Source: a virus (Duplodnaviria; Caudoviricetes). Taken from it: a DNA stretch of 54,581 bases. The notes under the pieces were generated by a model, which was not told where the DNA came from, did no database searches, and saw only the letters and a program-made list of their open reading frames with translations. A program made the translations under genes and the position numbers. Position 1 is the stretch's first letter. Each line of letters starts with the position of its first letter. This document shows, in pieces, positions 36,135 to 42,446 of the stretch. The stretch covers positions 1 to 54,581 of IMG/VR virus record IMGVR_UViG_3300001765_000047; one strand, given 5' to 3'.

Positions 36135-39100
36135 TTAAAACATCGAACCCTGCTGCTTATCCAGCATCCGCTTGCTGATTGCGCCAGCGATGCCTGTGTC
36201 ATCAAGCCCCCCCATCGGGTCAAGCATCATCTCGCGCAGGGCGTATTTCTTTTGAAGCCTGCGCAGCGCCGTGCGCTCGGATTTGTGATCGGATGCCAGG
36301 GTGTACACCGACACGTCGTTTTTTTGCCCGAGGCGGTGGATTCGCGCACTGCGTTGGCCGTGGGCCATGGCAGTATCCGGAACGTCATGCTGGCAGAGCC
36401 AAGTTCCGCGCTGCAAATTTTGGCCGACAGCCCCCGCGTCCGAGCACACCATGATGTCCGCCTTGGCATCGCCCGCCTCGGGCTGGAACAGCGCCCGCTT
36501 TTTCGCCTTGTCCTTTGCTGAGTCGCCTCCCGTGATGCTGGTCACCTTGTGGCCTTTGGCCTCCAGCGCCTTGATGATCTGCGCCACAGCCGCCCGGTTG
36601 TGCGCAAACACCACGCCGGGCTGGCCCTTGTGCTTGTCGGCCAGTTCCAGCATCTTGTCGATCTTGGAGTTGCCTTTCTCGGATGAATTGATCACCCGCT
36701 TGACAGCCGACTCCTTCATGATGCCAGCCGACTCGGCGATGCCCTTGGCAATAGCCTCATGCTGGTCGTCTGGCACGCCTTCAAACGATGACGGGCTGAG
36801 AGCTTTGGCTGATTCCACATCCACCTTGCCCGATGCCTTTGCCGCAGCCAGGCGCGCCATGGTCTTGTCGATGCCGCCTATCGCCTCTTTTTGGTGGTCA
36901 GACAGCGGCACGGTGATATTCTGATAGTCAGCCTTCACGTCCGGAGTGATGGTGTTGCTGATGCCGTAGCGCGCCATTTCGCGCTTGAGTCCGGCCTTTG
37001 CCGCCAGGGTGTCGCCGCCATAGGAACGCATGAACGCCGCCCGGTCGGGGTAGCGCGACCTGTCCATTTTCTCCAAGACAGAATGAATTTCACTGTTGTG
37101 ATGCCAAATCCCATGCGCCAAATAGTTATGGAAAATAGGCACCGTCAGGTCGTAAATATCTGCTGCGTCTTGCTTTATGATTGCGGTTATCTTGTTATAA
37201 AGGACGTTCCATGAGAGATGGCATGACAAAGAAGATGCGGGCGATTCGAGAGCTTCTTGATTCGCATCGTTCTGACATTGAAGTATGGGTTCAGCAGGGC
37301 AGAACCCTTGAACAGATGGGAGATGATCTCGGCGTGAGTTACGGAACAGTGCGCAATTACTGCATTCGTAACTCGATCCCGTACAACACGAAGCGCGGCT
37401 GGCGTTTTGGGTCAAACATGGGTGAAGAACATCACAGTTGGAAAGGTGGCCGTCATGTTGCTCCTGATGGTTACGTCTATGTATTGGCAAAGAACCACCC
37501 GAATGCAAACCGTCAAGGGAAAATCCGCGAACACAGGCTTGTGATGTCGAATATTCTTGGCCGCCCACTAGACCCAAAAGAGGTTGTTCATCACATTGAT
37601 GGTGACAAGTCGAACAATCACCCTGATAACCTTGAATTGCTTTCAAGCAATGGCGATCACATTCACCATCATCACACCGGATGGAAGTGGTCTGAGGAAT
37701 CTCGCAAGAGGCTATCTGAGGCAACAAAAGGGAAGGTGAATAAACCGCATTCTCCTGAGCATAGGGAAAAGATGCGGGTTCTGATGACCGGGCGTGTGTT
37801 TTCTCCAGAAACGATTCAAAAGATGAAAGATGCCGCGAAGAATCGGAAGCCAAGAACCCAAGAGCAGAACATGGCATCGGCAGAGGCAATGCGGAAAGCT
37901 CACGCATTGAATCCTGATTGGGGAAAGAAGGCTGGCGAGGCAATGTCAAGGGCAATGAAGGCGAAACGGCAATCTCAGAGCCAACAGAAAGATCAGACAA
38001 GTGCATCCAGCCATCAGGAGTTAGAAATCTGTGATCAGCAGCAACCGTGATTATGAGATTTCCGACTGCCACCTCAAACATTGGCCTATTTTCTGACTTG
38101 ATAAACGGTATGGATGCCTCGACCACATGCACATTGCTGGTATCAACATCAAGCGCATAGACGAATGGCCCAATCCCAGAACATGCCCAATCCTGCACCG
38201 TTGCAGACACGCTCCGAACTGGATCGAATATCACCGAGTTAGGATGCAAACATGAATCATTTTTCACCGTGTCCCCGCTCATATTCGCCAGGTACGGGGT
38301 GTTTTCCGTCACGGCATCAATCACGTTGGCACGGGCAGAATTCTCCTTCCCGGCCCGGTTGAGCATCTGGTGCGCCTCGTCCACAAACGTGGCTCCGAAG
38401 TCCATGCCCTCCTTTTCCATGACAGACTTAGCCCATGCCTTGCGGTCATCTTGGCTCATGGCCGCGACCTGCTCATTCATCGCATCCTCGCTTATCCCAG
38501 CGTGCTGGGCACCCATGTGCAGCATATCTGCCCGGAATGATTCGTGCGTAACCACATTGAAGTGGTTGCTGGCATCCTTGTAACCCGCGATGCGCTCGGC
38601 CTGCGAAGCCCCCGGCTGGCAATGCCACTTGAACTGGCCCGCCTCCAGGGAACGCGAGGCCTCGGCACCATACTGGTCTTGCACAATGCTGGGCACCAGA
38701 TGCAGCGCCCGCTTGATTTTCCCGGTCTTGATCAGGTGCGCCGTCGCCCCCAAAGCAACGTTCGTCTTGCCTGAACCCGCGCCTAGACCGAGTACCACCC
38801 GTTTGTTGGCCTCCATCAACTTGATGGCGCGCTGCTGTGGCGAGAACTTTTCCCCGGACATCGACACGTTCCACAACTTTGTCGGCTTGCCCGGCTTGAA
38901 GTTCTGCCCCACCACCGACATCATCCCGGCGATTTTCTGCTCTGCCGCATGGCCCAGCGAGAAACGCTCGTCGGCCCCGAGTTTTGGCGTTTCGTGCTTT
39001 TCCGGCTCGTCGCTTGGGCCAAACATATCGCCGCCGTCATCCGTCGAGAAGAACCCCATCTGCGCCTGCTCGAACGCCGCCTGGGCCTCCTTTTGCGCCT

Positions 39101-42100
39101 CGATCTTGTCCGACACCGACCCGCTGGCGTACTTGCCATTGATGCGCTCGCGTAGGGAGTCGATCAATTCCTTTTCCTTGGCCTGGCGCGCCGCCCGCGC
39201 CTCGGGGTCAACAGCATCAAGATGGTTCAGCCCGCCCTGGATCGTGGTCTTGCCAACCTTGAGTGGCGACTTCGGATTGAGTTTGTTGTGGGCATCCGCA
39301 AAGCCAGACACGACCTGCGAGCGAACCAAGTCCTGAGTGGACGATATGGCCTTGGCTGGACTACCCATGATGCCGACGTACTTGTTCCAGTCCAGACCCG
39401 CCGCGTTGACCTGTTGCGCCAAATCATCGCGCTTGGCCTTCCACGAGTGCCAGTCCGGGTTGATCGATTCCTCGCCGAACATATCGATAGAGGATTTCTC
39501 TGGCTCGTTTTTCTCAGTATCGGCCAGGTCGGCCTTTAGTCCGTCAGCGCCCGCGTCCTTCTTGCCGACATTGGATTCCCACCACTTGCGCAGGCCGGTA
39601 CGTTCCTGCGGGGTCAGGTCGCCGATTGGCTTAAACGCCGCCACACCCTCGGGCGTTGCAGACAGCGACCGGTGCAGCGCATCAACCGACTTTTTATCGA
39701 CCTCGAAGTTTTGCCGGTGCAGCGCGCTGGTGCCCGGCCCGTAGTTGGATGACACGAAGTCGTCGGCCATTTTCTCGAATGATTCCTTGAGCGAGTCGAT
39801 AGGCTTCATCTTGCCGCCCGCACCCTTGAGTGGAGCCACCTCGTCCAGCGCCGCCCGGTAAGCCGCAGGATCGCCAGCCTTGGCAAAGAAGTCGCTGGAT
39901 TGAATGTCGGCCAGAATGTCCTGTAGCGCGCCGCCGTCAGCGACCCGGCCACCGACGTAATCACGCAGCGAAGCAGCCAGATCAGACCCAGGTTGAAACG
40001 GTTTTGCCAGCTTGACCGCCACACCCGGCTCGACGTGCATCGCCAGGTCAGGCCGATTGGCGAAGCCCTGCGGCAGCCAGCCGTCCTCGTCCATGTCGCC
40101 CCGGATGATCGCCAGATTGCGCTTGATCTGTTTCAGTCCTTCCACATCGACCGGTTTTGCAAGACGGTCAAGCCCCTCTCCGGTGACCGTGGCTACCAAG
40201 TTGCCGCCCACGTCATCGAGTTTGTAGTCGCCCGACTTCAGGCCCAGGGCGTGCAGTTGAGTGATCGCCGCCTTGGCCTCGGTTTTCCCAAGCGACACCT
40301 CGACTTTGTCCTTGGCGCCCTGGCGCATCGCCATGACCAGCGCCGCATTGGCCTGAAGTTCGCCCGTGGCCTGCCCGAGGATGCGCTTCGCATCCTTGAC
40401 CGCCTCTCGCCGCCGGTGATTCAGTTCCTGGGCGTGCGCCAGGTCAAAGCCGTCCTTGCCGTCCGGCAGTTCGATATCGCTGGCCGCTTTTGCCAGCGCC
40501 TGCGCCTGGCTGACCGCAGCATCCTGCTTATCAGCCTGCGAGCCAGTGTGGTAATCCTCGACCCCCTGCTTGATGGCTTCGTAGTCGTCGGCCTGGTAAT
40601 CTCTGGCGATGCGCCGCGCCAGTATCTGCGCCGCCGCATTGATCCCGAGCACGTCCACCACCGACCTGTCGATCAGCGGCTCGCCGCCAACCGCCGTGCT
40701 GAAGGCGTTCAGGGAATTGAAAGCCCCGGCCCCGACGTGGCCTCCCAGCGATTCCTCCCCGCCCATCTTGTCGATTTCGGACAGCAGGCCAACAGCACCG
40801 ATGGTCTTAATGTCCTGCTCCATCTGTTTTTTAGCGCCAGCCTCCACCTCGGCATCCGACACCTCCAGCACATACGCCTTGGATTCGACAATTTTGGCGC
40901 TGGCCAATTCCATGCTCGCATGGCGCGCAAGTTGTTCCGCCATCTTGAGTTTTTTGCTGGCCAATACCAGCGCCGCCGCCTTGGTCGCATCCTCAAGCAC
41001 CCGCACCGATGGCTTGTGGGTTTCCGGGTTCGACAATTTGAAAGCATCAAGCTCTTTGCCGATATTCTCGGCCTCAACCTTCTGAGCAGCCGTTTTTTCT
41101 GCTTTTGCCGGGTCTTTTTGGGCACCGTGGACGGCTGTAAGCTCTTTTTCAACCACATCAGGGGTCAACCCCTGCTTTGCCGCCCGGTCGCCGTAGTCGG
41201 CTGAAAATCCCAACCCCGACGGTTTGTCGCTCACCGGGTCAAGGTCGGCGACCGAGATCACGTCGTCAGCCTTGGCTTGCAGCGGCATGTCACCCAGGCC
41301 CGAAGCCGCCAGGGCATCATGGTCGTTGAGTAGCATCTTGCGGTTGACGTTCACGGCATCCTTGGCGCGCTTGAACAGGTCAGCCGCGTGTTCGCGTTTG
41401 GCTTTCAGGATAGCCTCGTCGGACAGGCCCGCGCCCTCCATCTTGGACTCGTCGAACTCGGTGTCAGTCCAGCCCATAGCCTCAGACACGGTTTTGACGA
41501 ATTCCTCGCGCTGCTTTTTCATTTCCAGCTTGAGCTTGCCTTTTTCCTCTTGCTTTGCCCCGTGTATGCCGGATGCCTTGTCGGCCTCGGTCTGCGCCTT
41601 TTGCTTTTCCTGCCGCTCCTTTTGTTTGGCCGCAATGGACTCCTTGTAACCCTCGCCAGTCTTGACCGACCGCAACTTCAGGTGGTTCAGCGCGCCACCA
41701 GCGCCGCCGATCACGCGCATGGAACCGTCCGAGTGGGGCATGACCAGGATGGGTTGACCTTTTCCGCCTCCGCTATTTACGGTAATCCAATGGGCACCTT
41801 CAGGGATTGGCCCGTGCTCGGACTTGGCAAGCATTTCCTGGCCGAAGTCAAAACCCCCGGATTCGAGGGATTTGATCATGGCCGGTTTGTCGAACGTCGC
41901 CCGCGCCTTGGCGACGAACTCAGCGACCGGCATGGCCGTCACCGGCCCCAGGAACCGCAAGTCGTTATAGTGCCGCAGGAAAGCATCCACCGCATCGGCC
42001 TCGCTGCTGAAATTTACTAAAACCTTGTCCTCGTCGTAGCGGCCCCAATCGCCAGCCTTGCGCTGGTGAACCACATAGACCATGGGCGCATCCTCGACCG

Positions 42101-42446
42101 GCCCCAGGTACACATCGACGCTGTCCCCGTCAACACCCATGGTCATGCGCAAATAGCCGTAGGCGAACAGCATCTTGGTTTCCCAAGCCTTGCCATTGGG
42201 GTCAACGCCACGCCGTACCGACCCGGCCTCGTTCTCGATGCTGATGGTCATCCCGTTCCATGGCACTTTGCGCTTGGGGTAGTTGCCAGCCTTGAGTTGC
42301 GCCTCGGTGGGCGCGCTTGCCTTGACGAAGGAATCTGGCGGCTCACCGTTGAGCTGCGAGATTGGCCCGGCCTTGCAAAAGGAGTCGTAGTCAGGCTGGG
42401 CGTATTCCGGCACTTGGCCGATGGAGTCAAAGTCGAGTGAGGTCAT
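36135..42446 (-). CDS. Polyvalent protein: inorganic pyrophosphatase-like domain plus SNF2-family helicase (DarB-like architecture) containing an intein, 2103 aa
   Basis: N-terminal GNY.K..ISIEN..GS.R.G..YGY..G.DGD.VDVYLG..DEDKV; helicase motifs GAGSGKT, DEAH, SGDTVKN, VVFAH, SDAGAVGQNLQ and QRSARIHRLGQ. Confidence 0.85.
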   Translation of the reverse strand: MTSLDFDSIGQVPEYAQPDYDSFCKAGPISQLNGEPPDSFVKASAPTEAQLKAGNYPKRKVPWNGMTISIENEAGSVRRGVDPNGKAWETKMLFAYGYLRMTMGVDGDSVDVYLGPVEDAPMVYVVHQRKAGDWGRYDEDKVLVNFSSEADAVDAFLRHYNDLRFLGPVTAMPVAEFVAKARATFDKPAMIKSLESGGFDFGQEMLAKSEHGPIPEGAHWITVNSGGGKGQPILVMPHSDGSMRVIGGAGGALNHLKLRSVKTGEGYKESIAAKQKERQEKQKAQTEADKASGIHGAKQEEKGKLKLEMKKQREEFVKTVSEAMGWTDTEFDESKMEGAGLSDEAILKAKREHAADLFKRAKDAVNVNRKMLLNDHDALAASGLGDMPLQAKADDVISVADLDPVSDKPSGLGFSADYGDRAAKQGLTPDVVEKELTAVHGAQKDPAKAEKTAAQKVEAENIGKELDAFKLSNPETHKPSVRVLEDATKAAALVLASKKLKMAEQLARHASMELASAKIVESKAYVLEVSDAEVEAGAKKQMEQDIKTIGAVGLLSEIDKMGGEESLGGHVGAGAFNSLNAFSTAVGGEPLIDRSVVDVLGINAAAQILARRIARDYQADDYEAIKQGVEDYHTGSQADKQDAAVSQAQALAKAASDIELPDGKDGFDLAHAQELNHRRREAVKDAKRILGQATGELQANAALVMAMRQGAKDKVEVSLGKTEAKAAITQLHALGLKSGDYKLDDVGGNLVATVTGEGLDRLAKPVDVEGLKQIKRNLAIIRGDMDEDGWLPQGFANRPDLAMHVEPGVAVKLAKPFQPGSDLAASLRDYVGGRVADGGALQDILADIQSSDFFAKAGDPAAYRAALDEVAPLKGAGGKMKPIDSLKESFEKMADDFVSSNYGPGTSALHRQNFEVDKKSVDALHRSLSATPEGVAAFKPIGDLTPQERTGLRKWWESNVGKKDAGADGLKADLADTEKNEPEKSSIDMFGEESINPDWHSWKAKRDDLAQQVNAAGLDWNKYVGIMGSPAKAISSTQDLVRSQVVSGFADAHNKLNPKSPLKVGKTTIQGGLNHLDAVDPEARAARQAKEKELIDSLRERINGKYASGSVSDKIEAQKEAQAAFEQAQMGFFSTDDGGDMFGPSDEPEKHETPKLGADERFSLGHAAEQKIAGMMSVVGQNFKPGKPTKLWNVSMSGEKFSPQQRAIKLMEANKRVVLGLGAGSGKTNVALGATAHLIKTGKIKRALHLVPSIVQDQYGAEASRSLEAGQFKWHCQPGASQAERIAGYKDASNHFNVVTHESFRADMLHMGAQHAGISEDAMNEQVAAMSQDDRKAWAKSVMEKEGMDFGATFVDEAHQMLNRAGKENSARANVIDAVTENTPYLANMSGDTVKNDSCLHPNSVIFDPVRSVSATVQDWACSGIGPFVYALDVDTSNVHVVEASIPFIKSENRPMFEVAVGNLIITVAADHRFLTPDGWMHLSDLSVGSEIAVSPSLPLTLPRQPSFPNQDSMRELSALPLPMPCSALGFLASDSSRHLSSFESFLEKTHARSSEPASFPYAQENAVYSPSLLLPQIASCEIPQTTSIRCDDGECDRHCLKAIQGYQGDCSTCHHQCDEQPLLGLVGGQEYSTSQACVRGFSLDGLHSGGSLPIHRRNHQEQHDGHLSNCDVLHPCLTQNASRASCCTGSSYECSNCALFRNSRRDHLPSVQGFCPAEPILQCQNDANQEALESPASSLSCHLSWNVLYNKITAIIKQDAADIYDLTVPIFHNYLAHGIWHHNSEIHSVLEKMDRSRYPDRAAFMRSYGGDTLAAKAGLKREMARYGISNTITPDVKADYQNITVPLSDHQKEAIGGIDKTMARLAAAKASGKVDVESAKALSPSSFEGVPDDQHEAIAKGIAESAGIMKESAVKRVINSSEKGNSKIDKMLELADKHKGQPGVVFAHNRAAVAQIIKALEAKGHKVTSITGGDSAKDKAKKRALFQPEAGDAKADIMVCSDAGAVGQNLQRGTWLCQHDVPDTAMAHGQRSARIHRLGQKNDVSVYTLASDHKSERTALRRLQKKYALREMMLDPMGGLDDTGIAGAISKRMLDKQQGSMF
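37095..38252 (-). mobile_element. Intein (386 aa) inserted just after helicase motif III
   Basis: Starts CLHPNSVI; block B ITVAADHRFLT..GW..L..G; blocks F/G DIYDLTVPIFHNYLAHGIWHHN followed by Ser. Removal restores SGDTVKNDS-SEIHSVL. Confidence 0.92.
37211..38050 (+). CDS. HNH homing endonuclease with N-terminal HTH and NUMOD3-like repeats, antisense inside the intein
   Basis: WKGG..DGYVYV..HP..EHRLVM..LGRPL..EVVHHIDGDKSNNHPDNLEL; WSEESRKRLS, HSPEHREKM and FSPETIQKM repeats; SD AAGGA before ATG 37211 (track start 37181). Confidence 0.9.
   Translation: MRDGMTKKMRAIRELLDSHRSDIEVWVQQGRTLEQMGDDLGVSYGTVRNYCIRNSIPYNTKRGWRFGSNMGEEHHSWKGGRHVAPDGYVYVLAKNHPNANRQGKIREHRLVMSNILGRPLDPKEVVHHIDGDKSNNHPDNLELLSSNGDHIHHHHTGWKWSEESRKRLSEATKGKVNKPHSPEHREKMRVLMTGRVFSPETIQKMKDAAKNRKPRTQEQNMASAEAMRKAHALNPDWGKKAGEAMSRAMKAKRQSQSQQKDQTSASSHQELEICDQQQP

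What the first reader, a model, noticed from the sequence alone, without database searches (positions are those of the whole stretch)
37095..38252. Contiguous intein whose homing endonuclease is encoded on the opposite strand
Seen: a 386-aa intein with intact splicing motifs (Cys1, block B His, terminal HN followed by Ser) interrupts the helicase. Its central region of about 250 residues has no LAGLIDADG or HNH motif and reads as Ser/Cys/Leu/Pro-rich noise. The reverse strand of the same DNA (37211..38050) encodes a complete HTH-HNH-NUMOD3 endonuclease with its own SD, and its stop lies within intein block B. Both frames are open across 840 nt; 250 stop-free codons by chance is roughly (61/64)^250, about 1e-5, ignoring composition bias. 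Known: canonical inteins carry the nuclease in frame; split inteins flanking free-standing nuclease genes exist; and I recall reports of phage inteins with alternate-frame nucleases, so novelty needs checking. Inference: a free-standing HNH gene invaded a mini-intein backwards and the sense frame was purged of stops. The result is a dual-coding mobile element whose nuclease is expressed independently of the late host gene.
Basis: partly seen in the sequence, partly recalled or inferred. Interest (0 to 1): 0.88.

Follow-up and report, generated by a model that had tools for sequence, protein, structure and literature searches.

The report
Intein carrying an antisense HNH nuclease
A self-splicing protein insert (intein) in a phage helicase gene carries its homing nuclease gene backwards on the opposite DNA strand; the layout is known for other nuclease types, but this HNH version appears unreported and turns out to be common in environmental phages.

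Summary
Window 37095..38252 (-) is a 386-aa class-1 intein in helicase motif III of a 2103-aa phage protein. Window 37211..38050 (+) is a 279-aa HNH_3/NUMOD3 nuclease ORF with a Shine-Dalgarno site, lying wholly inside the intein.

- **Open frame:** the host frame is stop-free across the nuclease gene in 1 of 100,000 synonymous permutations.
- **Fold:** AlphaFold gives a complete HINT fold from residues 1-100 plus 350-386. The 245 residues between are unstructured.
- **Recurrence:** 24 of 44 IMG/VR relatives of the nuclease and 5 of 7 metagenome loci show the same nesting, mostly in terminase Walker A. All 30 cases share one overlap phase.
- **Selection in relatives:** the HNH frame is under purifying selection (dN/dS 0.09-0.41). 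The intein frame over the same bases is only kept open.
- **Prevalence:** a profile of the host-frame "shadow" of the HNH core finds 531 protein clusters.
- **Empty site:** an intein-less allele exists in Bordetella phage PHB04.

Antisense nucleases in contiguous inteins are already published for LAGLIDADG (1998) and VSR-like (2025) types. I found no report of an antisense HNH type. Expression, splicing and cleavage are untested, and no + strand promoter was found. Verdict: a real feature and a new variant of a known kind.

The parts
36135..42446 (-). Host gene: 2103-aa precursor with an N-terminal InPase domain and an SF2/SNF2-like helicase (phrog_62). The intein interrupts it.
   Evidence: ORF. 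Pfam InPase 2.5e-41, DEAD, ResIII and Helicase_C. phrog_62 at 6.4e-123.
38253..42446 (-). N-extein, ending ...GDTVKNDS (helicase motif III region).
   Evidence: Translation. Window residues 214-1413 align with residues 12-1209 of the intein-less helicase of Bordetella phage PHB04.
37095..38252 (-). Intein, 386 aa, class-1 features: Cys1, block B His74, His385-Asn386, followed by Ser.
   Evidence: Intein_splicing 2e-10. C1, H74 and N386 are invariant in 20 aligned inteins. NpuDnaB intein Z 21.3, rmsd 1.7 A over 138 residues.
37953..38252 (-). N-terminal splicing half (intein residues 1-100), including blocks A and B.
   Evidence: AlphaFold pLDDT 86-97 and beta strands. Conserved with the P0004 intein.
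37206..37952 (-). Unstructured linker (intein residues 101-349). It is the host-frame read-through ('shadow') of the HNH gene.
   Evidence: pLDDT 33-48 and no secondary structure. No family hit. In relatives this frame has dN/dS of about 1 or more.
37095..37205 (-). C-terminal splicing half (intein residues 350-386, blocks F and G, ...NYLAHGIWHHN).
   Evidence: pLDDT 92-97. Conserved in P0004, L046, L047, L048 and L050.
36135..37094 (-). C-extein, starting SEIHSVLEKM...; carries Helicase_C.
   Evidence: Window residues 1785-2093 align with PHB04 residues 1200-1507.
37211..38050 (+). Antisense gene for a 279-aa HNH homing-type endonuclease: helical N-terminal domain, HNH_3 core, NUMOD3 repeats. 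It lies wholly inside the intein.
   Evidence: AlphaFold mean pLDDT 81.9. Best Foldseek match is I-HmuI 1u3e at E 0.027, which is weak. Catalytic columns H128, N140 and H150 are invariant in 19 relatives.
37200..37204 (+). Shine-Dalgarno-like AAGGA, 6 nt upstream of the HNH ATG.
   Evidence: Sequence. AAAGGA and the ATG are conserved on the reverse strand of L046. An SD-like motif is present in 15 of 19 nested relatives, against 996 of 6950 background ATGs.
37953..38050 (.). Stretch where the HNH C-terminal tail overlaps the structured N-terminal splicing domain (intein residues 68-100, block B). This is the only part where both frames encode something likely to matter.
   Evidence: Coordinates. 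The last 20 residues of the HNH model have pLDDT 51-61. The intein residues here have pLDDT 86-96.

Best explanation
This is a mobile intein whose homing nuclease is a separate gene on the antisense strand.

**How it most likely works**
1. The helicase gene is translated straight through the insert.
2. Intein residues 1-100 and 350-386 fold into a complete HINT splicing domain.
3. The 245 residues between them are a disordered tether with no function of their own. They exist only because the opposite strand encodes the nuclease.
4. Class-1 protein splicing (Cys1, block B His74, His385-Asn386, +1 Ser) removes the insert and rejoins ...VKNDS to SEIHS..., restoring helicase motif III.
5. The + strand ORF, with its own Shine-Dalgarno site, makes an I-HmuI-like HNH enzyme with a helical DNA-binding head and NUMOD3 repeats.
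6. That enzyme nicks or cuts the intein-less allele of related phages during co-infection. Repair then copies the whole intein, which contains the entire nuclease gene and its ribosome-binding site.

**Shown**
- Both ORFs, the domain signatures and the folds.
- Selection against stops in the host frame.
- An empty-site allele in a related phage.
- In relatives: purifying selection on the nuclease frame, one shared overlap phase, and co-divergence of nuclease and splicing domain.

**Inferred**
- Transcription of the + strand.
- Splicing.
- The cleavage target, and ongoing homing.
For: **Anatomy and domains**
- ORFs, Pfam and PHROG hits as set out in the observation check.
- The intein model matches mini-intein structures: 4o1r at Z 21.3, rmsd 1.7 A over 138 residues. 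Residues 101-345 have pLDDT below 50.
- The HNH model has mean pLDDT 81.9.

**Stop avoidance**
- In the window, 1 of 100,000 permutations leaves the host frame open.
- In nested relatives, P is at most 0.002 in 15 of 15, with 0 of 20,000 in 11 of them.
- All 20 of 20 free-standing relatives carry 2-32 stops in that same antisense frame.

**Recurrence**
- 24 of 44 IMG/VR loci holding a relative of the nuclease have it nested antisense in an intein-bearing ORF.
- 5 of 7 metagenome loci found with the intein alignment do too.
- All 30 of 30 cases share one phase.
- The nuclease ORF lies wholly inside the intein in 19 of 19 cases with mapped boundaries.

**Selection in 12 related pairs**
- Substitutions are most numerous at HNH codon position 3 in 11 of 12 pairs.
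- HNH dN/dS is 0.09-0.41 in the 9 pairs that could be estimated.
- Host-frame dN/dS exceeds 1 in 10 of 12 pairs.

**The window's own lineage**
- P0004, the only other protein with this intein at this site, has a centre compatible with an antisense relative of the nuclease in the same phase. The score is z 14.9 against 100 shuffles.
- The shadow profile hits P0004 at E 3.4e-9.
- L046 conserves the SD and the ATG.

**Empty site**
- PHB04 helicase reads 'DPVKNDA|SEVYD', at 49-52% identity on both sides.
- L049 reads 'SPVKNDSSEIYDW'.

**Foreign composition**
- The intein is 48% GC and the exteins are 60% GC.

**Co-divergence**
- Mantel r is 0.83, with 0 of 5000 permutations as high.
- The window's nuclease sits in a clade of 17 nested and 1 free row, with SH-aLRT 99.
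Against: - There is no expression evidence. The sequencing-run tool could not be reached in five tries.
- The promoter scan found no sigma-70-like site on the + strand in 36700..38500.
- Nearly all neighbouring genes are on the - strand, so the nuclease would be transcribed head-on against them.
- No DNA relative close enough for per-frame dN/dS exists for this particular intein. The selection evidence comes from terminase inteins that are 17-26% identical in the intein frame.
- With GC-rich host codon usage the open frame is less improbable, at 53 of 20,000.
- The structural match of the nuclease to I-HmuI is weak, at E 0.027, and nothing reached E 0.001.
- The HTH Pfam hits are below their cut-offs.
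- The Mantel and label-shuffle statistics are inflated by near-copies among the loci.
- Splicing and cleavage were not, and cannot be, tested here.
Confidence: 0.75

Rival explanations
1. The intein splices, but in this copy the antisense HNH gene is a silent or decaying passenger. The element is then effectively a mini-intein with a long tether, inherited vertically.
For: No + strand promoter was found. There is no expression data (tool unreachable). Only two proteins with this intein at this site exist among 5.8 billion clusters, so recent homing cannot be shown. The published model for antisense nucleases expects rapid decay once homing stops (bioRxiv 10.1101/2025.01.02.630785, section 15).
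Against: The ORF is intact over 279 codons and keeps all 16 columns that are invariant in 19 relatives. The SD and start codon are conserved in L046. P0004, which is 32-38% identical in the intein, still carries a recognisable shadow of the nuclease. Relatives show purifying selection on the HNH frame.
Confidence: 0.15
2. The nuclease is active but does not mobilise this intein. It targets another site (trans-homing, or exclusion of competing phages) and merely uses the intein as a safe harbour.
For: Free-standing phage HNH genes often cut sites in related genomes outside their own position (recalled general knowledge; the mobE and Aeh1 examples are cited in PMC2677866 passages). A free-standing relative, L034, sits within the nested clade.
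Against: The nuclease and the splicing domain co-diverge. The nuclease ORF with its SD lies wholly inside the intein in 19 of 19 cases. The association holds across different host genes and insertion sites. All three points fit a single mobile unit.
Confidence: 0.07
3. The insert is not removed by splicing. Either the helicase tolerates it as a loop, or the gene is dead and the open frame is a leftover.
For: Splicing is untested. A same-strand hidden HNH insertion without any splicing domain is tolerated in phage methylases (PMC11855218, abstract and passages).
Against: All class-1 splicing residues are present and a complete HINT fold is predicted. The insert sits inside helicase motif III, exactly between residues that are adjacent in PHB04. 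The 2103-codon frame is intact.
Confidence: 0.03
4. The + strand ORF is a chance open frame with no coding meaning.
For: Long antisense open frames do occur by chance in some genes.
Against: HNH_3 and NUMOD3 score above their Pfam cut-offs. PHROG reaches 3.8e-24. There are 44 relatives in IMG/VR. The AlphaFold model is confident. It is the host frame, not this one, that lacks any signal.
Confidence: 0.005

Closest known systems
Non-canonical inteins with an antisense LAGLIDADG nuclease (Synechocystis DnaX and Chloroflexus SpoVR-like inteins; actinophage minor-capsid inteins). Gorbalenya 1998 and Gogarten 2002 are known to me only as cited in bioRxiv 10.1101/2025.01.02.630785, of which I read sections 8 and 15. 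See also bioRxiv 10.64898/2026.09.14.751524, of which I read passages.
   Same: A contiguous intein whose in-frame centre has no fold. The nuclease is encoded in another frame between the splicing blocks, and the intein and nuclease are thought to move as one unit.
   Different: The nuclease family here is HNH_3 + NUMOD3, not LAGLIDADG. The hosts are phage helicase and terminase P-loop motifs.
[quoted passage not shown]
   Same: Phage inteins, many in the terminase large subunit, with the nuclease in a separate overlapping ORF. The proposed origin is invasion of an intein by a free-standing nuclease gene.
   Different: The nuclease fold differs. That survey lists HNH only as an in-frame domain.
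ShiLan-type hidden HNH insertion in mycobacteriophage DNA methylases (PMC11855218).
   Same: An HNH gene hidden in an alternate frame of an insert that is stop-free in the host frame. The ShiLan-type nucleases are detectable relatives of the window's nuclease (tblastn E 1e-9 to 2e-9).
   Different: ShiLan is on the same strand, and its insert has no splicing domain. Here the nuclease is antisense and is flanked by a complete HINT domain.
Fractured genes: split inteins flanking a free-standing nuclease gene (Dassa et al. 2009, PMC2677866, passages read).
   Same: A free-standing nuclease gene sits between the two intein halves, which are thought to be related stages of one evolutionary path.
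   Different: There the host gene is broken into two ORFs and the nuclease is on the same strand. Here the host frame is continuous: 0 of 30 nested cases has a stop.
I-HmuI, the HNH nicking homing endonuclease of a phage SPO1 group I intron (PDB 1u3e).
   Same: It is the best structural match of the nuclease model, and HNH plus DNA-binding modules is the same general build.
   Different: The match is weak (E 0.027, 95 columns). I-HmuI is intron-encoded on the sense strand.

Membership tests
Class-1 intein (HINT splicing domain) | Nucleophile (Cys/Ser) at position 1 | tested here: met
   Cys1. It is invariant in 20 aligned inteins.
Class-1 intein (HINT splicing domain) | Block B histidine (TxxH region) | tested here: met
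   T69...H74, 'TVAADH'. H74 is invariant in 20 of 20. The Thr-His spacing is longer than the textbook TxxH; that motif is recalled, not from a call.
Class-1 intein (HINT splicing domain) | C-terminal His-Asn followed by Ser/Thr/Cys | tested here: met
   H385-N386 followed by Ser.
Class-1 intein (HINT splicing domain) | HINT fold | tested here: met
   AlphaFold pLDDT above 90 for residues 1-100 and 350-386. NpuDnaB intein 4o1r gives Z 21.3, rmsd 1.7 A over 138 residues. Pfam Intein_splicing is over its cut-off.
Class-1 intein (HINT splicing domain) | Precise in-frame insertion at a conserved site, relative to an uninterrupted homologue | tested here: met
   The PHB04 helicase aligns on both sides with the 386 residues absent. 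L049 has the uninterrupted site.
Class-1 intein (HINT splicing domain) | Protein splicing activity | not testable with these tools
   This needs expression of the precursor.
HNH homing endonuclease (HNH_3 with NUMOD3 modules) | HNH catalytic motif | tested here: met
   HNH_3 at 3.3e-10, over its cut-off. H128, N140 and H150 are invariant in 19 relatives.
HNH homing endonuclease (HNH_3 with NUMOD3 modules) | Separate DNA-binding modules | tested here: met
   NUMOD3 at 2.2e-5, over its cut-off. The HTH hits are below their cut-offs, but residues 7-53 are modelled as four helices at pLDDT of about 95.
HNH homing endonuclease (HNH_3 with NUMOD3 modules) | Site-specific nicking or cleavage of the element-free allele | not testable with these tools
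   This needs a biochemical assay.
HNH homing endonuclease (HNH_3 with NUMOD3 modules) | The gene is expressed | not tested
   The look-up of sequencing runs was unreachable. An SD is present. No + strand promoter was found.
Non-canonical intein with antisense-encoded homing nuclease | The intein frame is continuous while a nuclease ORF lies on the opposite strand between the splicing blocks | tested here: met
Non-canonical intein with antisense-encoded homing nuclease | The nuclease frame, not the intein frame, is under purifying selection in the overlap | tested here: inconclusive
   This is met in 12 pairs of related terminase inteins. No DNA relative of this particular intein is available; only indirect support from P0004 exists.
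Non-canonical intein with antisense-encoded homing nuclease | The nuclease is of the published types (LAGLIDADG or VSR-like) | tested here: not met
   It is HNH_3/NUMOD3. This is the respect in which it is a new variant.
Split intein / fractured gene | The host gene is broken into two ORFs around the nuclease gene | tested here: not met
   There is a single 2103-codon ORF. None of the 29 nested relatives has a stop in the intein.
ShiLan-type hidden HNH insertion | The nuclease is on the same strand out of frame, and the insert has no splicing domain | tested here: not met
   Here the nuclease is on the opposite strand and a complete HINT domain is present.

The most novel reading that the evidence does not exclude
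The window is one member of a large clade of HNH homing nucleases, unrecognised as far as I could find. These nucleases live obligately on the antisense strand of inteins, always in one overlap phase. They have co-diversified with their splicing domains and hopped between nucleotide-binding motifs of phage terminases and helicases. At least 531 protein clusters at 50% identity carry their host-frame shadow. Gene callers annotate only the host ORF, so the nucleases are invisible in protein databases and these inteins pass for inteins with an 'unknown linker'. The antisense placement may itself be adaptive. It would uncouple nuclease dosage and timing from a highly expressed late protein. It would also put the wobble position of each frame opposite the second position of the other, leaving the tether free to drift.
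Probability: 0.45. Interest if true: 0.75.

Novelty: new variant of a known kind. Interest (0 to 1): 0.62.

Why it matters
- **A third nuclease family.** Antisense encoding of the homing nuclease in contiguous inteins has been treated as a rarity. This finding adds HNH-NUMOD3 to LAGLIDADG and VSR-like, and suggests the HNH form is common in uncultured phages: 24 of 44 relatives, and 531 shadow clusters.
- **A clean natural case of antisense dual coding.** One frame is a real enzyme. The other needs only to stay open. That is useful for calibrating methods that detect overlapping genes.
- **Support for an evolutionary model.** It fits the 'splicing domain first, nuclease invades later' view of intein evolution.
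- **A practical annotation warning.** Inteins with large unexplained centres should be scanned in six frames.
- **Possible tools.** The nucleases and the long-tether-tolerant splicing domains could be sources of new nicking enzymes and of permissive intein scaffolds.

Tried and rejected
- **Close DNA relatives in phage records.** blastn 'distant' of 36900..38450 against 50,697 phage records gave only a 91-bp extein match in 2 records of Bordetella phage PHB04.
- **The intein in phage records.** tblastn of the intein gave 1 weak hit. It lies on the sense strand in a 599-aa 'putative HNH endonuclease' of Virus Rctr197k, which is not this architecture.
- **Nucleases in phage records.** tblastn of the window's nuclease hit 170 records (40 listed), and a nested-type nuclease hit 152 records (60 listed). 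Among the listed rows none lay under a terminase or helicase annotation. The 130 and 92 unlisted rows were not seen.
- **IMG/VR scan with the intein alone.** It gave one weak, non-nested locus, L001.
- **Genome-contig scan.** It gave only an archaeal ribonucleotide-reductase intein with an in-frame LAGLIDADG-like centre, L053, which is irrelevant.
- **Protein word search on the intein region.** It returned only the window's own protein and P0004.
- **Promoter scan.** No + strand promoter was found. The two + strand terminator-like sites at 37043-37065 are no more than shuffles give.
- **Structure match of the nuclease.** Foldseek found nothing at E 0.001 or better.
- **Chance ORF, split intein, same-strand ShiLan type.** I considered each and rejected it; see the membership test.
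- **Packaging HNH of cos phages.** I considered this because many relatives sit in terminase genes. I set it aside because the window's copy is in a helicase and the protein has homing-type DNA-binding modules. This rests on recalled knowledge and was not tested.
- **Literature.** Eight full-text searches found no report of an antisense HNH nuclease in an intein. Subscription journals and supplements were not searchable, and the supplementary tables of the 2025 preprint could bear on this. Gorbalenya 1998 and Gogarten 2002 were not read.

**Rows left out**
- Of the 24 nested IMG/VR loci, boundaries and statistics were computed on 15. L005, L015 and L018 are cut by contig ends. L020, L021, L026, L027, L029 and L033 are near-copies of others.
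- L051 was left out as a copy of L050.
- L048 was left out of the nuclease alignment A2, and therefore of the anatomy count, because it is too divergent. It was kept in the intein alignment A3 and in the tree.
- The 12 pairs were chosen by me among visibly related loci.
- The 33 hits and the 7 were chosen by me from the 150 listed.
Full report
**What is there.** The window is an IMG/VR virus record, linear and about 60% complete by CheckV. Nearly all its long ORFs are on the - strand. One of them, 36135..42446 (-), encodes a 2103-aa protein with an N-terminal InPase domain and SF2 helicase domains (DEAD, ResIII, Helicase_C; phrog_62 at 6.4e-123). Residues 1399-1784 of this protein (window 37095..38252) are an intein. 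It has Cys1, a block B region T69..H74 and His385-Asn386, and is followed by Ser. Pfam Intein_splicing scores 2e-10, above its cut-off. On the + strand, 37211..38050 encodes a 279-aa protein. HNH_3 (3.3e-10) and NUMOD3 (2.2e-5) are above their cut-offs, and PHROG HNH families reach 3.8e-24. The HTH hits are below their cut-offs. AAGGA lies 6 nt before the ATG. The ORF's stop falls on intein residues 68/69, next to block B.

**Is the double open frame more than chance?** The host codon is the reverse complement of HNH codon positions 2, 3 and the next position 1. Host-frame stops therefore arise only where an HNH codon ends in TT, CT or TC and the next begins with A. I kept the HNH protein and its own codon usage and permuted synonymous codons. 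The host frame stayed open in 1 of 100,000 trials. With uniform synonymous codons it stayed open in 0 of 20,000, and with the GC-rich codon usage of the exteins in 53 of 20,000. None of the 30 at-risk dipeptides uses a stop-making codon. The other four frames of the same DNA carry 6-21 stops.

**Which frame is the real protein in the overlap?** AlphaFold used an alignment of 20 inteins. It models residues 1-100 and 350-386 at pLDDT above 90, as beta strands. Residues 101-345 come out below 50, with no secondary structure. The confident part superposes on mini-inteins: NpuDnaB 4o1r gives Z 21.3 and rmsd 1.7 A over 138 residues, and Ssp DnaB and Mtu RecA splicing domains also match. The + strand protein, modelled with 19 relatives, reaches mean pLDDT 81.9. 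Its best PDB match is the HNH homing endonuclease I-HmuI, but only at E 0.027, and nothing reached E 0.001. The intein is thus a complete HINT domain split by a disordered tether, and the tether is the read-through of a real nuclease gene.

**Relatives of this intein.**
- A word search of 5.8 billion protein clusters with the intein region found only the window's protein and P0004. P0004 is a 2031-aa helicase with a 360-aa intein at the same site (...VKNDA|C...HHN|SE).
- The splicing ends of the two inteins are conserved, while their centres barely align.
- P0004's DNA could not be fetched. I therefore enumerated, for each residue pair of its centre, the residues possible on the antisense strand in the window's phase, and aligned those sets to the window's nuclease. 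The score lies 14.9 sd above 100 shuffles; the positive control with the window's own centre gave 50 sd.
- The metagenome scan found L046, a related helicase whose contig starts inside the intein. Its reverse strand conserves AAAGGA and the ATG with similar first codons.
- The helicase of Bordetella phage PHB04 (1518 aa) is 49-52% identical on both sides and lacks the 386 residues. It reads 'DPVKNDA|SEVYD' across the site.
- L049, another related helicase, has 'SPVKNDSSEIYDW' uninterrupted and carries a similar intein in its Walker A motif instead.
- The intein is 48% GC against 60% for the exteins. The low GC spills about 30-40 nt into both flanks.

**The arrangement recurs.**
- I scanned IMG/VR with the nuclease and got 44 loci. 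In 24 of them the nuclease ORF is completely covered by a 1.0-3.5 kb open frame on the other strand.
- By my reading of the translations, all 24 are intein-bearing proteins with a ...HN|S/T or ...KN|C end. They look like terminase large subunits from their Walker A and B motifs, though no family search was run on them. The intein mostly splits Walker A (GK|T, G|SGKS). In five loci it precedes Walker B.
- The metagenome scan with the intein alignment gave 7 loci. Five of them (L047, L048, L050, L051, L052) are likewise Walker-A inteins with an antisense HNH ORF.
- All 30 cases, the window included, share one overlap phase. This phase is not forced. The codon-aligned antisense phase could be kept open by synonymous choice alone (my reasoning from the code). 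Free-standing relatives carry similar numbers of stops in both phases.
- In 19 of 19 cases with mapped boundaries the nuclease ORF lies wholly inside the intein. It starts 28-48 codons from the intein's C-end and stops 22-71 codons from its N-end.
- An SD-like motif precedes 15 of the 19 starts, against 996 of 6950 ATGs in the same loci. Many also have a TGATAnAAT-like -10 element 25-60 nt upstream (not quantified).

**Selection.**
- In 15 of 15 non-redundant nested relatives the open host frame has a permutation probability of at most 0.002, and it was 0 of 20,000 in 11 of them. All 20 of 20 free-standing relatives carry 2-32 stops in that same antisense frame.
- In 12 pairs of related nested loci, substitutions are most numerous at HNH codon position 3 in 11 pairs. 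The twelfth pair has only 5 differences.
- HNH-frame dN/dS is 0.09-0.41 in the 9 pairs where dS was not saturated.
- Host-frame dN/dS over the same nucleotides is 0.37-2.97, and above 1 in 10 of 12 pairs.
- Amino-acid identity is higher in the HNH frame in 11 pairs and equal in 1.
It is shown for relatives, not for the window's own lineage.

**History.**
- In a quick maximum-likelihood tree of 40 nucleases, the window's enzyme falls in a clade of 18 (SH-aLRT 99). Seventeen of these are nested. One, L034, is a free-standing multi-HTH HNH gene on a long branch.
- The Walker-B group (L025, L032) and L048 fall elsewhere, so starred branches force at least two gains or losses of nesting.
- The nested label needs 4 changes on the tree, against 13.7 in shuffles (0 of 500 as low).
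- Distances between splicing domains and between nuclease cores correlate: Mantel r 0.83, with 0 of 5000 permutations as high. Near-copies inflate both statistics.
- The simplest reading is that a free-standing HNH gene entered an intein backwards long ago. The composite has since moved as a unit between sites and host genes. The window's copy is a descendant, not a fresh invasion.

**Prevalence.**
- Gene callers report the host ORF, so the nucleases themselves are absent from protein libraries. I therefore built a profile of the host-frame 'shadow' of the HNH core (19 sequences, 75 positions). I searched it against 1.84 billion cluster representatives.
- It found 531 hits at E 0.001 or better and 67 at 1e-10 or better. 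P0004 is among them at 3.4e-9.
- Of 33 hits that I sampled, 28 show an intein block-G end (...NY.A.G..HN|S/T) 94-170 residues downstream, often splitting SGKT, TGKT or TG.GKGR P-loops.
- Of 7 hits scanned with Pfam, 6 match Intein_splicing at E 0.001 or better, and 2 of those are above the cut-off. The hosts include SNF2-like and RecD2-like helicases.

**What is known.**
- The 2025 preprint of Gosselin, Arsenault and Gogarten (bioRxiv 10.1101/2025.01.02.630785; abstract and sections 8 and 15 read) surveys 784 actinophage inteins. [quoted passage not shown]
- It credits Gorbalenya 1998 and Gogarten 2002 with the first antisense LAGLIDADG cases.
- A 2026 preprint treats the cyanobacterial DnaX intein's out-of-frame nuclease (10.64898/2026.09.14.751524; passages read).
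- Arsenault et al. 2025 (PMC11855218; abstract and passages read) describe a same-strand hidden HNH in phage methylases without any splicing domain. Those methylase loci appear among the tblastn hits of the window's nuclease.
- Dassa et al. 2009 (PMC2677866; passages read) describe split inteins around free-standing nucleases.
- Eight full-text searches found no antisense HNH intein. Supplements and subscription journals were not searchable.
- In 50,697 deposited phage genomes I saw no nested case among the rows listed.

**Verdict.** The feature is real. It is best explained as a splicing-competent intein mobilised by an antisense-encoded HNH nuclease (confidence 0.75). The main rival is that the nuclease in this copy is silent (0.15). 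Transcription, splicing and cleavage are inferences. No + strand promoter was detected, and the run-search tool could not be reached. The architecture as such is published. The HNH-NUMOD3 version, its single overlap phase and its apparent abundance in uncultured phages appear to be new.

Noticed in passing
window 37211..38050 and loci L002-L052: All 30 nested cases use the same antisense phase: first codon positions face each other, and each frame's wobble faces the other's second position. The codon-aligned phase would be easier to keep open. Whether this reflects common descent or an advantage of that phase is unexplained.
   Followed up: partly
L003, L005, L010, L016, L017, L025, L032 (25-60 nt upstream of the HNH ATG): TGATAnAAT / TATAAT-like -10 elements lie upstream of many nested HNH starts, inside the DNA that encodes intein blocks F and G on the other strand. 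The window has TGTTATAAA at 37193-37201, but it overlaps the SD. This was not quantified.
   Followed up: no
L029:3422-6931 (-): The terminase ORF of L029 appears to carry a second, small intein near its C-terminal part (...NH|CIPGDSFVV...GYVVSN|SIDATRY), besides the Walker-A intein with the antisense HNH.
   Followed up: no
P0022 (1245 aa): This protein has the HNH shadow at residues 204-277 and also a second intein with an in-frame LAGLIDADG_3 domain at 531-850. Two nuclease strategies sit in one host protein.
   Followed up: no
L049:176-2032 (+): A helicase related to the window's host has the window's insertion site empty. It carries a similar intein (...ANYLAHGIWHHN|SGKT) in its Walker A motif. 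The contig ends inside that intein.
   Followed up: partly
L056:3135-4934 (KX853510.1, Virus Rctr197k): A 599-aa annotated 'putative HNH endonuclease' matches the N-terminal splicing half of the window's intein on the sense strand (E 6e-4). It may be a HINT-HNH fusion or an in-frame HNH intein.
   Followed up: no
Mycobacterium phage records (ShiLan, Filuzino, Bipolar and others): The same-strand hidden HNH genes of phage DNA methylases (ShiLan type) are detectable relatives of the window's antisense nuclease (E 1e-9 to 2e-9, 2e-7 to 6e-7). This hints that one HNH lineage is prone to living inside other genes' frames.
   Followed up: no
window 37050-37094 and 38253-38290: The low GC content of the intein extends about 30-40 nt into both exteins. 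This would fit short co-conversion tracts, or codon constraints of the helicase motif.
   Followed up: no
window 36135..42446 (-): The host protein joins an InPase domain to a long helicase. Its N-terminal part matches PHROGs annotated as DarB-like antirestriction, virion structural and minor head proteins, and it sits next to head-gene-like ORFs. It may be a virion-carried protein.
   Followed up: no
L034:5284-6342 (+): A free-standing HNH gene with about five tandem HTH modules groups, on a long branch, inside the otherwise nested clade. It may be an escape from an intein, or a model of the free-living ancestor.
   Followed up: partly
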